In this document: positions 13,801-16,800 of the stretch, one piece after another
Position numbering within the stretch: the stretch's first letter is position 1
How the letters are laid out: each line of letters begins with the position of its first letter
From: Escherichia coli
GTDB lineage: Bacteria; Pseudomonadota; Gammaproteobacteria; Enterobacterales; Enterobacteriaceae
Strand: one strand, 5' to 3'
NCBI RefSeq assembly: GCF_017348835.2
Contig: NZ_CP071375.1
Length of the DNA: 64,000 nt
Position numbers: made by a program

Positions 13801-16800
13801 CACGGTCATAATCAGCGACAGGATAATCCCCACCGCCGCAACGCCAGTACATAACCAGAAAGCCATATTAAAGGCCTCCCAGCGCGCCATATTCAGGCCA
13901 ATCCACGGCCCGACCACCATTGCCAGCCCCATTGCCAGAGAGAAAAAACTGATGCCCTCCCCACGTCGGGAGGCCGGGATCAGCCGCGCGGAAATCGTTC
14001 CCTTTACCGTTGTGATAACCCCGAAGGTAATACCATGAAGCACCCTAATAAAAAGCAGTGATTCTATTGAGTGGCAAAAAGGATACAGCGCAGTGACCAC
14101 CAAAAAGGCCAGAGAAGAGAGCACCAGAATAGTTTTATTCGAATATTTACCCACCCATTGCCCGGCAAAGGGTCGAATAACAATCGCCGCAATTAAAAAT
14201 AATGTCACCAGCAGACCAGCTTTATCAGGAGAGGCATGCAAGCGGTCAGAGATATAAATTGGCAACAATGTTAGTAAAACATAAAAGACGAAGAAAATAA
14301 TAAAGCTGATGATGGTTATTGCCCAAAAATCCTTCGTCCATAACTTCTCTTTCATACCCTACCGCCTGTCAGGATGACGCACGCAGACAACACTCCCGTT
14401 ACTGCGGTTGCGTCAAATTGTGATGTACTTTGCAGAACAGAAGTATAAATGGCGGCATGCTATTAGAGAAATTAATCGTTTTAATATTATTGATTAGCAA
14501 ACTCTAATGACTCTTACCCAAATAAATTCTTTACTCGCCGTGCTGGATTACGGTGGCTTTACTGAAGCCAGCAAGCGATTGTTCATGACGCAGTCGGCGG
14601 TAAGTCAGGCAATTGCTGCCCTCGAACAAGAACTTGGTGTGAATATACTGTTACGCGATCGCCGTAAAGCTATACAACTGACCACAGCAGGTCATCGCAT
14701 TGTGCAACATCTGCGCGCCATTAATCGGGAAGTTAACGCAGTAAAAGAGATAGCCGAGCAGGAAAAGCAGAACCCTCAAAGAACGCTGAGACTTGGTTGT
14801 TTCCCCAGCGTCTGCGCCTGTATCTTACCGGTTGTGATTCGCTACTTTGAAATTCATCATCCGAATATAAAAATTATTCCTTTTGAGGAAAATAGCACAG
14901 CGATTATTGATTCGCTTCAGAATGAATCCATTGATGCCGGTTTTGTTCATTTTCCGGTGAGCGGAATGTACTCCGTGCCCATTTATCAGGATAAATTCAC
15001 CGTAGTGTTACCGCCCAACCATGCTCTGGCAAAAAACAGCACTATTACAGTGGAAGAATTAATGGGTGAACCATTAATCATTAGTAAAGGACGCTATGAA
15101 TTAAGCATTATGGCACTATTTAAAGAAAAGAATATTACCCCACAGATAAAATATGAATTTAATCACCCGGATACAGCGATCAGTTTTATTCGACAGGGAT
15201 TAGGCATCGCCTTATTACCAGAGTTAACGCTGAAAACCATTGCAGATGAATTGTGTTCCGTTCCTCTCGAACCAACCTTCTATCGACAGATTTCGTTGCT
15301 GGCTAAAGAAAAGCCGGTAGAAGGCAGTCCACTGTTTTTACTACAAATGTGTACGGAACAACTCGTGGTGAGTGGAAAAATTTGATGTAAGACATGAGAT
15401 TGATGACAAATGTAAGATTGCCTGATTCGCCACACTTAGTTGGCCTGTAGTCTTTACCAGGCGTAATAATTCGTTTTCACCTGATTTTGGTCCACTTTGT
15501 GAATTAGCGATATATATTTATCCAGTTTAGGGAAGTGACAATGACTCCAGGTAGAAACCAGTATGAAGCGCCCGACTCACTGTCAAAACCGATTGTTGAG
15601 AGTAATGACACTCCGGCGAACAGTACACAGTTTACTCTGGAGCCACTCTCAATCTTCAAGTGGGATACCTAATAACTTGTCAGGGAAGTTATCAATATCT
15701 GTTTGTTACTTATTACCGTGTTTATTAACAATAATGATACTTTCTAACATGCGTAAAGGTCTTCGTAATAAAATGAGCTAAATTTGATAGTGAATATATT
15801 CTGCAAAGATTAAATTGTATCTTGTTAACTCACAATACAAGGAATCATTTATGCCAAATACATCTATTCAATTATCTCGCTGTAATCTTTTACAAAATAA
15901 TAAATTGCAAACAGCAGAAATTTACAAAGAATCACAACAAACCGCGAAACTTGAGATTTTTTGCAATGAGTTTCTAAAAATATCTCAAAGTAGATTCGGG
16001 TTATCAACCTCAGCAGACAACATAGCTAATTTATTGGCTTTTTTCACGAAAGCCTCAGATGAAATTGATAGTATCAAGACCCAAAAAATTGACGTTCACA
16101 GTTATGGTTTCGTACCAATAAGACATTTTGTCGAGCATGTCATAACGTATAAAAATGAATTTGCAGCGGATTATGAACCCTATACCCTTACCTTTACCCG
16201 AGGTGAAAACAACGAAGGTGTTTTGAGTATCGAAAGCAAAGAAGGGTCTATTTCACAAAGAACAATAAACTTAAATGAATATGAAACTGCAATTAACATC
16301 ATCAATGAGCATGTTGCAAAAGAAAATACCCACAACACGGTCCAGTCACTGACAGAAAAAGACATTTCAAAAATAAACAGCTCTGATAAGCCTTATAAAA
16401 CCAGCAGTGAGGAAAGTATTAAAAGTCAACTTTACAGCGATCAAAAAAAATATGCAGACCTGCTACAACATTCTGAGAAAAATACAGAATGGTACAAATA
16501 CGCATCCTCCGAGGAACGCTATGATAAATTCAAGAATTCTTCTAAGGAAATTAAAAACACCTACAAGCAAATTGTACAAGCGCAGAAAAAATTGAACCAA
16601 ATGAAATATATCAATAAATTAGGTGGTGAGCTTATCGATATCGCCGACAAAAAGTTAGCACCATTAATAAATGATAGTTTCAGCTATACACGAGATTTCT
16701 TTGCTTACTCAAAACAGGAAAATAACATCTTCACGTTTGATAATTCTAAGTTTGAAGATCCAAAGGAAAAAAAAGGTTTAATGGTACAACACAGCAATGG

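What the first reader, a model, noticed from the sequence alone, without database searches (positions are those of the whole stretch)
15541..15672. Unannotated 43-codon small ORF with a strong SD upstream of the orphan gene
ATG at 15541 is preceded by AGGGAAG at 6-nt spacing and opens a 43-codon frame (MTPGRNQYEAPDSLSKPIVESNDTPANSTQFTLEPLSIFKWDT), which is below the threshold of the ORF track. It lies between the LysR gene and the orphan gene. It could be a genuine small protein, a leader peptide, or a remnant of a deleted gene.
Basis: seen in the sequence. Interest (0 to 1): 0.3.

Follow-up and report, generated by a model that had tools for sequence, protein, structure and literature searches.

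The report
Chance small ORF on pseudogene debris
The 43-codon reading frame is really there and has a good ribosome-binding site, but it sits on the wreckage of an old gene copy inside a dispensable E. coli insertion, evolves as if unconstrained, and did not pass a permissive published ribosome-profiling screen, so it is most likely not a working gene.

Summary
In detail: ATG 15541 opens a 43-codon frame ending at TAA 15670-15672, and a strong Shine-Dalgarno sequence precedes it (-6.5 to -7.3 kcal/mol). The gene interpretation is not supported.

- **Chance.** An ORF this long appears in 42% of shuffles of the 465-nt spacer.
- **Setting.** The ORF lies in a ~1.7-kb insertion (about 15395-17108, sORF plus orphan gene). 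K-12, E. whittamii and a cryptic-clade Escherichia lack it. About 19% of complete E. coli genomes carry it, often in decayed form.
- **Origin of the start.** The SD is the antisense of the last codons of a degraded inaA-like gene (15454-15536). The ATG and the first six codons resemble the inaA upstream spacer (15537-15559). The start therefore sits on a rearrangement junction.
- **Rest of the ORF.** Codons 7-43 match nothing.
- **Evolution.** There are 9 nonsynonymous and 2 synonymous changes, which fits neutrality and rejects omega <=0.3.
- **Disrupted alleles.** Two frameshift alleles, a stop-loss allele and an IS1 insertion exist.
- **Translation.** The ORF is absent from the 465 translated intergenic ORFs reported for O157:H7 Sakai.
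- **Annotation.** It is already deposited sporadically as "hypothetical protein".
- **Leader peptide.** No leader-peptide features were found.

Best reading: a fortuitous, non-functional ORF, or at most a young proto-gene. Interest is low.

The parts
15541..15672 (+). The 43-codon small ORF including its stop (alternative GTG start at 15535)
   Evidence: It is intact in all 59 full-length copies of a spread sample of 1047 genomes. The allele tally is 9 nonsynonymous against 2 synonymous changes.
15529..15535 (+). Shine-Dalgarno-like AGGGAAG (GGGAGAAG in the common haplotype)
   Evidence: Duplex energy is -6.5 and -7.3 kcal/mol, in the top 2-5% of random ATGs. The sequence is the antisense of the Phe-Pro codons of the inaA-like remnant.
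15454..15536 (-). Remnant of the 3' end, stop codon included, of an inaA-like (Kdo/LPS kinase family) gene
   Evidence: It matches 61 of 83 nt of inaA 12434-12516 (blastn E 4e-10). On the minus strand, 13 of 25 residues match InaA 191-215. The shuffle z-score is 20. It also matches inaA of other Escherichia.
15537..15559 (.). Piece resembling the spacer upstream of inaA (13113-13135); it holds the ATG and codons 1-6 of the sORF
   Evidence: Repeat D3, 18 of 23 nt. Shuffle z = 6.8, reached by 0 of 500 shuffles. It directly abuts the 83-nt remnant.
15560..15720 (.). Body of the sORF plus 48 nt, with no detectable relative
   Evidence: No similarity to inaA, the MFS gene or their spacer (z about 0). 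No Pfam hit in six frames. The protein search returns only the ORF's own alleles.
15721..15804 (.). Second piece resembling the inaA upstream spacer (13104-13182), in the AT-rich gap before the orphan gene
   Evidence: D5, 15 of 17 nt; z = 5.4.
15395..17108 (.). About 1.7-kb accessory insertion carrying the sORF and the orphan gene; K-12, E. whittamii and Escherichia sp. E1V33 have the empty site
   Evidence: The alignment of the junctions defines the ends. Segment-by-segment BLAST supports it. In K-12, yfaH is followed by glpQ after 41 nt. The segment is present in 1047 of 5426 complete E. coli genomes. The end coordinates are uncertain by 1-2 nt.
15851..16921 (+). Orphan gene (356 aa, about 33% GC), Sakai ECs_3123
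   Evidence: It has no relative outside Escherichia and shows weak constraint.
14507..15385 (+). Full-length LysR-family regulator; K-12 yfaH is its C-terminal fragment
17109..17132 (.). Hairpin AGGATGGCG-N6-CGCCATCCT shared by the LysR and glpQ 3' ends; the insertion displaced it away from LysR
   Evidence: Coordinates were read off the alignment.
15642..15650 (.). Site where IS1 interrupts the sORF in strain XJ5.2 (9-bp target duplication)

Best explanation
The ORF is a fortuitous, non-functional reading frame in non-coding debris.

**How it arose.** A ~1.7-kb AT-rich segment carrying an Escherichia-only orphan gene was inserted between the LysR gene and glpQ in some E. coli lineages. The left part of that segment holds the wreck of an inaA-like gene on the minus strand. 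A rearrangement joined the antisense of that gene's last codons, which are purine-rich and so SD-like, to a piece resembling the inaA upstream spacer, which happens to contain an ATG. Downstream sequence of unknown origin then stays open for 43 codons, which is ordinary for this composition.

**What it does.** If the region is transcribed, the good SD and ATG could allow some ribosome loading. One possible source is read-through from LysR, whose hairpin now lies beyond the insertion. No selection acts on the peptide.

**Shown:** the anatomy, the insertion, the inaA-like remnant, the neutral-like substitution pattern, and the absence from the Sakai Ribo-seq list.

**Inferred:** the order of the rearrangements, the LysR read-through, and the lack of function.
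For: **Chance**
- ORFs of at least 43 codons occur in 42% of shuffles.
- ORFs of 51 and 72 codons overlap the same spot.

**Origin**
- 15454-15536 is a copy of the inaA 3' end (E 4e-10; z = 20).
- 15537-15559 resembles the inaA upstream spacer (z = 6.8).
- Together these two pieces supply the SD, the ATG and codons 1-6.

**Distribution**
- The segment is absent from K-12, E. whittamii and Escherichia sp. E1V33.
- It is present in 1047 of 5426 complete E. coli genomes and in the clade-I strain TW10509.
- The island decays in many carriers, through LysR/MFS deletions, IS1 insertions and internal stops.

**Selection**
- There are 9 distinct nonsynonymous changes: R5G, R7Q, L14P, S15L, K16N, A26P, P35S, F36L, F39Y.
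- There are 2 synonymous changes.
- This fits omega = 1 (P = 0.35-0.48). Omega <=0.3 has P = 0.01-0.03.
- Further variants include P3L, G4D, E20D, S21G, Q30P, K40M and a stop-loss allele. The 90% cluster holds 75 distinct sequences.
- Nucleotide diversity is 0.012, within the range of neighbouring 100-nt windows.

**Disruptions**
- A +1A frameshift occurs in two independent runs and a -2 frameshift in one.
- IS1 sits inside the ORF in strain XJ5.2.

**Expression**
- The ORF is not among the 465 translated intergenic ORFs of Sakai.
[quoted passage not shown] The thresholds were 1 RPKM, 50% coverage and RCV 0.25, under three conditions (PMC5597208).
- Two EDL933 Ribo-seq supplements contain no trace of it.

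**Peptide**
- It is hydrophilic, Pro- and Ser/Thr/Asn-rich, with no hydrophobic segment and no Cys.
- It hits no family in Pfam, NCBIfam, PADLOC, PHROGs or the PDB.
Against: - The SD is truly strong in all three haplotypes seen: TAGGGAAG, GGGAGAAG and GGGGGGAAG.
- The sORF frame has the best codon score of its six frames: +0.14 per codon against -0.19 to -0.68. That places it at the 11th percentile of real-gene chunks.
- The frame is intact in essentially all complete genomes. Neither known frameshift occurs among the 1047, and there is one IS1 insertion. It is also intact in TW10509, where the orphan gene is broken.
- Its diversity is at the low end for the region.
- Gene callers call it routinely in public assemblies.
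- The Ribo-seq negative covers only three laboratory conditions. It could also reflect manual filtering.
- The substitution counts are small and come from within-species polymorphism, which inflates pN/pS.
Confidence: 0.78

Rival explanations
1. It is a young, lineage-restricted small protein gene (de novo birth). The rearrangement junction created a functional start, and the 43-aa acidic, probably disordered peptide is made and used in E. coli strains that carry the insertion.
For: - The SD is strong and is kept in three different haplotypes.
- ATG start; this frame has the best codon score of the six frames.
- It is intact in about 99.9% of complete carrier genomes, and in clade-I TW10509 although the neighbouring orphan is broken.
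- Diversity is lowest in the region.
Against: - 9 nonsynonymous against 2 synonymous changes, including radical ones (L14P, Q30P, G4D, P3L).
- Frameshift, stop-loss and IS1 alleles exist.
- Having no nonsense mutation among 11 substitutions is expected 60-66% of the time under neutrality.
- It is not in the Sakai translated-ORF list.
- 15% of spurious ORFs of the same size score as well on codon usage.
- It is absent outside the accessory insertion.
Confidence: 0.1
2. It is an upstream ORF or leader peptide whose translation controls the downstream orphan gene, by attenuation or by translational or Rho-dependent coupling.
For: - It lies on the same strand and upstream of the orphan gene, with a strong SD.
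- The sORF and the spacer down to the orphan start are the least diverse part of the insertion.
Against: - A 178-nt gap separates it from the orphan start.
- No terminator-like hairpin with a U-tract was found.
- The fold energy of 15500-15860 is ordinary: z = -0.8, and 24 of 100 shuffles fold as well.
- There is no run of codons for one amino acid.
- Frameshift alleles that extend the ORF by 19 codons coexist with an intact orphan gene (L012).
Confidence: 0.04
3. It is the surviving fragment of a larger protein-coding gene on the same strand and in the same frame, truncated by deletion.
For: - The region is demonstrably built of gene debris.
- GC content of the ORF (46%) is higher than that of the flanking AT-rich DNA (28%).
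Against: - A search of 5.8 billion proteins returns only the ORF's own alleles and their frameshifted versions.
- No Pfam hit in any of six frames.
- No plasmid or phage source was found.
- The only recognisable debris is on the opposite strand and covers only the first six codons.
Confidence: 0.03

Closest known systems
Spurious or 'proto-gene' intergenic ORFs, i.e. non-genic ORFs that may be pervasively translated (concept from my own knowledge of the de novo gene literature)
   Same: It is short and taxonomically restricted. It has no homologues and a neutral-like substitution pattern. It arose from non-coding or pseudogene sequence, and its start signals were assembled by accident.
   Different: Its SD is unusually strong for a random ORF (top 2-5%). 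Its origin can be traced to a specific junction in an inaA-like pseudogene, which is rarely possible.
Candidate novel intergenic genes (XECs001-465) of E. coli O157:H7 Sakai (PMC5597208)
   Same: It is the same kind of object, an intergenic ORF of at least 30 aa, in the same genome. It lies between ECs_3122 and ECs_3123 and was therefore in that study's candidate pool.
   Different: It is not among the 465 ORFs with accepted Ribo-seq signal. The list jumps from 3,066,154 to 3,133,048, while the sORF lies at about 3,077,838.
Validated E. coli small proteins of 50 aa or fewer (from my own knowledge; the census PMC11188072 describes selected intergenic smORFs as mainly hydrophobic, potentially transmembrane)
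   Same: Size, ATG start and good SD.
   Different: The peptide is hydrophilic and Pro-rich with no hydrophobic helix (GRAVY -0.8). It is not conserved beyond an accessory insertion. There is no evidence of purifying selection. It was not found in the census supplements held as text.
Attenuator leader peptides such as trpL and hisL (from my own knowledge)
   Same: A short ORF with an SD upstream of another gene on the same strand.
   Different: No regulatory codon run, no terminator/antiterminator pair, and a 178-nt gap.
K-12 yfaH, a pseudogene fragment at the same locus
   Same: It is also debris in the same decaying inaA-glpQ island. It shows how fragments here get annotated as genes: NCBIfam NF007272 is an equivalog model built on that fragment.
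   Different: yfaH is a recognisable fragment of a real LysR gene in its own frame. The sORF's frame has no parent gene.

Membership tests
Bona fide small protein gene | Intact ORF with a start codon and a ribosome-binding site | tested here: met
   ATG at 15541. SD duplex energy is -6.5 and -7.3 kcal/mol.
Bona fide small protein gene | Purifying selection on the encoded sequence (fewer nonsynonymous than synonymous changes per site) | tested here: not met
   9 nonsynonymous against 2 synonymous changes. This is consistent with omega = 1, and omega <=0.3 has P = 0.01-0.03. The counts are small and come from polymorphism data.
Bona fide small protein gene | Reading frame kept in relatives beyond the species | tested here: not met
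   The whole segment is absent in E. whittamii, Escherichia sp. E1V33, Kluyvera, Pseudocitrobacter and K-12. Within carriers the frame is mostly kept, but frameshift, stop-loss and IS1 alleles exist.
Bona fide small protein gene | Experimental evidence of translation | tested here: inconclusive
   It is absent from the Sakai list of 465 translated intergenic ORFs. It is also absent from two EDL933 Ribo-seq supplements. Raw reads could not be inspected, and only a few conditions were sampled.
Attenuation leader peptide | Run of codons for the sensed amino acid within the short ORF | tested here: not met
   The peptide sequence has no repeated regulatory residue.
Attenuation leader peptide | Alternative hairpins, including an intrinsic terminator, between the leader ORF and the regulated gene | tested here: not met
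   No terminator-like site in 15200-16000. Fold z = -0.8.
Pseudogene remnant of an inaA-like (Kdo/LPS kinase) gene | Significant sequence similarity to the parent gene, with truncation | tested here: met
   This applies to 15454-15536 on the minus strand: 73% DNA identity, E 4e-10, z = 20, 13 of 25 aa, stop codon in register. It covers the SD only, not the body of the sORF.
Pseudogene remnant (same strand and frame as the sORF) | The sORF peptide aligns to part of a longer protein | tested here: not met
   Only its own alleles were found among 5.8 billion proteins. No family hits.
Known RNA family (sRNA or riboswitch) in place of a coding ORF | Match to an Rfam covariance model | tested here: not met
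   Only one sub-threshold chance hit elsewhere: Yar_1, 23.7 bits against a gathering score of 50.

The most novel reading that the evidence does not exclude
A de novo gene caught at birth. A rearrangement inside the wreck of an inaA-like gene fused an antisense purine-rich stretch (now a strong SD) to an ATG-bearing spacer. This created a translated 43-aa acidic microprotein restricted to E. coli lineages that carry a 1.7-kb accessory insertion. Its product would have, or be acquiring, a function, for example with the neighbouring Escherichia-only orphan protein.
Probability: 0.07. Interest if true: 0.5.

Novelty: not a real feature. Interest (0 to 1): 0.12.

Why it matters
As it stands, the value is mainly cautionary. 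A textbook-looking SD, ATG and open frame can be assembled by accident from pseudogene debris. Annotation pipelines and gene callers disagree about this ORF: PGAP calls it in 1 of 60 sampled genomes, while other callers call it routinely. "Frame conserved among strains" carries little weight when diversity is only about 1%.

If the ORF proved to be translated and functional, it would be a well-documented bacterial example of gene birth with a traceable molecular origin for its start signals. The evidence here makes that unlikely.

Tried and rejected
**Searches with no result**
- Rfam scan of 13000-17500: nothing relevant.
- Promoter and terminator scans of 15200-16000: none.
- Pfam, NCBIfam, PADLOC, PHROGs and PDB searches with the peptide: none.
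- All six frames of the spacer against Pfam at E <=10: none.

**Leads that did not deliver**
- I hoped P0004 and P0005 were divergent orthologues for a dN/dS test. They are frameshifted alleles of the same ORF.
- I looked for the donor of the insertion in plasmids and phages. There is none; the single "plasmid" hit is a mislabelled chromosome.
- I searched for distant relatives of the orphan protein to find an ancestral arrangement. There are none outside Escherichia among 1.84 billion representatives.
- I tested whether the sORF body is decayed inaA or MFS sequence on either strand. It is not (z about 0). MFS tblastn hits are noise.

**Literature checks**
- K-12 profiling literature is irrelevant because K-12 lacks the segment.
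- The EDL933 TSS supplement was truncated in storage, so transcription starts near the sORF could not be checked.
- The peptide is not in the text-held supplements of the Enterobacteriaceae smORF census. This is only a weak negative.

**Error corrected**
- My first syn/nonsyn script dropped alleles with terminal mismatches and mixed species for LysR. I redid it.
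Full report
**1. Observation**

The window is E. coli: nrdB-yfaE-inaA, then an MFS transporter gene (13165-14355, minus strand), a LysR-family regulator (14507-15385, plus), the small ORF, a 356-aa orphan gene (15851-16921, plus), then glpQ-glpT-glpA.

It ends at TAA 15670-15672. An in-frame GTG lies at 15535.

The ORF is not strictly unannotated. PGAP calls it a hypothetical protein (WP_259394523.1) in strain PE164, which is identical to the window here. The peptide has been deposited sporadically in GenBank and UniProt. Still, 59 of 60 sampled RefSeq carrier genomes leave it unannotated.

**2. Is it more than chance?**

| Test | Result |
|---|---|
| ATG ORF of at least 43 codons in dinucleotide shuffles of the 465-nt spacer | 42% |
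| Other ORFs overlapping the same spot | 51 and 72 codons |
| SD duplex with the 16S 3' end, window haplotype | -6.5 kcal/mol |
| SD duplex, common haplotype | -7.3 kcal/mol |
| Median SD energy of long ORFs in the window | -3.8 kcal/mol |
| ORF plus SD-like 4-mer in shuffles | about 5% |
| ATG ORFs of 40-60 codons in the 64-kb window | 114, of which 5 have an SD-like motif |

The length is unremarkable. The SD is real and falls in the top 2-5% of random ATGs. A few such cases per window are expected.

The codon-usage score is ambiguous. It is +0.14 per codon and the best of the six frames. That is only the 11th percentile of real-gene chunks, and 15% of spurious ORFs of the same size score as well.

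**3. Where it sits**

The stretch from about 15395 to 17108 (sORF plus orphan) is an insertion.
- In E. whittamii and Escherichia sp. E1V33, the LysR stop is followed after 42 nt by glpQ. The two genes share a hairpin, which in the window lies at 17109-17132, to the right of the insertion.
- K-12 MG1655 has the same empty site: yfaH, 41 nt, then glpQ.
- In Kluyvera and Pseudocitrobacter, LysR is followed by ORFs of glpA and glpB size.

The segment occurs in 1047 of 5426 complete E. coli genomes and in the clade-I strain TW10509. It has no counterpart in plasmids or phages.

The orphan protein has no relative outside Escherichia. This holds among 5.8 billion proteins and among 1.84 billion cluster representatives.

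The island is decaying in many carriers. The lesions include deletion of the MFS gene and most of LysR, internal stops in LysR, and IS1 insertions.

**4. What the start region is made of**

- **15454-15536** is a diverged copy of the last 83 nt of inaA (12434-12516), stop codon included. It shows 73% identity (blastn E 4e-10) and a shuffle z-score of 20. On the minus strand it reads FPKLDKYISLIHKVDQNQVKTNYYA, against InaA FRQLEKYLEPIPKADWEQVKAYYYA.
- **15537-15559** directly abuts it and matches 13113-13135, in the spacer upstream of inaA, at 18 of 23 positions (z = 6.8).
- **15721-15804** is a further piece that resembles the same spacer (z = 5.4).
- **15560-15720**, the body of the ORF, matches nothing, locally or in any database.

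So the SD is the antisense of Phe-Pro codons of an inaA-like pseudogene. The ATG and codons 1-6 come from an inaA-upstream-like fragment. The start of the ORF therefore lies on a rearrangement junction.

The remnant and the adjacency are shown. That the junction is a simple internal deletion is inference. The arrangement of the two spacer-like pieces is not fully explained.

**5. Evolutionary test**

I compared about 25 copies, including the more divergent TW10509, L029 and L030.
- Nonsynonymous changes (9): R5G, R7Q, L14P, S15L, K16N, A26P, P35S, F36L, F39Y.
- Synonymous changes (2): N6 and I18.
- The stop codon also varies, TAA to TAG.

The neutral expectation is 72-76% nonsynonymous. The data fit omega = 1 (P = 0.35-0.48) and reject omega <=0.3 (P = 0.01-0.03) and omega <=0.2 (P < 0.005).

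The public 90% cluster holds 75 distinct peptide variants. Among the 15 members listed there are six further changes (P3L, G4D, E20D, S21G, Q30P, K40M) and a stop-loss allele.

Frame-breaking alleles exist:
- +1A at a short A run, in two independent sequencing runs.
- -2 at ACAC, in one run.
- IS1 with a 9-bp target duplication at 15642-15650 in strain XJ5.2.

These alleles are rare. Neither frameshift occurs in the 1047 complete genomes. All 59 full-length sampled copies have the same length.

That intactness means little. With this few substitutions, having no nonsense mutation is expected 60-66% of the time under neutrality.

Nucleotide diversity in the ORF is 0.012. This is the lowest of the segments compared, against 0.018-0.060 for the others, and at the low end of the range of the 100-nt windows along the region (0.012-0.059).

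**6. Expression evidence**

O157:H7 Sakai carries the segment. The sORF lies at about 3,077,838-3,077,969, between ECs_3122 and ECs_3123.

Hücker et al. [quoted passage not shown] They used permissive thresholds (at least 1 RPKM, at least 50% coverage, RCV at least 0.25) in three conditions. Their complete S2 Table lists XECs271 at 3,066,056-3,066,154 and then XECs272 at 3,133,048-3,133,182, with nothing near this locus.

Two EDL933 Ribo-seq papers have no trace of the peptide or its neighbours in their supplements. The EDL933 TSS table was truncated in storage. K-12 data cannot speak to the question because K-12 lacks the segment.

**7. Other readings**

- **Leader peptide.** There is no terminator-like site and the RNA fold is ordinary (z = -0.8). 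There is no regulatory codon run, and 178 nt separate the ORF from the orphan start. The frameshifted, 19-codon-longer allele coexists with an intact orphan gene (L012).
- **Same-frame gene remnant.** There is no longer homologue anywhere.
- **sRNA.** There is no Rfam match.
- **Defence or phage protein.** There are no hits.
- **Peptide properties.** The peptide is hydrophilic (GRAVY -0.8). It has 5 Pro and 14-15 Ser/Thr/Asn/Gln, carries a net negative charge, and has no hydrophobic stretch and no Cys. This differs from selected enterobacterial intergenic smORFs, which PMC11188072 describes as mainly hydrophobic.

**8. Verdict**

The sequence observation is confirmed.

The best explanation is a fortuitous ORF whose convincing-looking start signals were assembled by a rearrangement in pseudogene debris. 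It lies inside a dispensable, decaying insertion and shows no detectable selection on its product (confidence about 0.78). It may be translated at a low level if LysR transcripts read through; that step is inference.

A young de novo gene cannot be excluded (about 0.07-0.10). A uORF role and a same-strand remnant are unlikely.

Interest is low.

Noticed in passing
window 15851-16921: The orphan gene has no homologue outside Escherichia among 1.84 billion representatives. Its in-frame pN/pS (0.58) is no lower than in its shifted frames (0.55-0.76). The O157 allele differs from the window allele by a compensated -1/+1 indel pair, so about 12 codons are read in another frame (…DQKKYADLLQHSEKNTEW… against …DQRNIQTCYYILRKNTEW…). 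PGAP's 'frameshifted' flags simply depend on which allele serves as reference.
   Followed up: partly
window 13082-13100 and 14353-14371: A 19-nt direct repeat (18 of 19 identical) covers the start codon plus 16 nt of 5' leader of both inaA and the MFS transporter gene. On the minus strand it reads TGACAGGCGRTAGGGTATG. It could be a shared regulatory or translation-initiation element or a recombination scar.
   Followed up: no
window 15537-15559 and 15721-15737, against 13104-13135: Two pieces flanking the sORF body both resemble the same 32-nt stretch upstream of inaA. Their order does not fit a simple insertion with a target-site duplication, so the rearrangement history is unresolved.
   Followed up: partly
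window 14507-15385 (residues 226-292 of the LysR protein): NCBIfam equivalog NF007272 (PRK09729, 'hypothetical protein', 68 aa) matches only the C-terminal 67 residues of this LysR regulator. The model is built on the K-12 yfaH pseudogene fragment.
   Followed up: partly
window 16922-17098: The stretch between the orphan gene and the glpQ hairpin has very high within-species diversity (pi 0.06, 33 of 178 sites segregating). Its deep haplotypes do not track those inside the orphan gene, which indicates a recombination mosaic.
   Followed up: no
L014 (JAIJJM010000334.1): A contig filed as a 'Collinsella sp.' metagenome-assembled genome is 93-99% identical, segment by segment, to this E. coli locus. 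It is likely contamination of the MAG.
   Followed up: no
PLSDB record NZ_CP141089.1: A 4.94-Mb E. coli chromosome is filed in the plasmid collection as a non-mobilizable plasmid.
   Followed up: no
window 15386-15394 and 17109-17132: The insertion separated LysR from the hairpin it shares with glpQ in genomes with the empty site. LysR now has no recognisable terminator before the sORF, so read-through transcription of the insertion is possible.
   Followed up: partly
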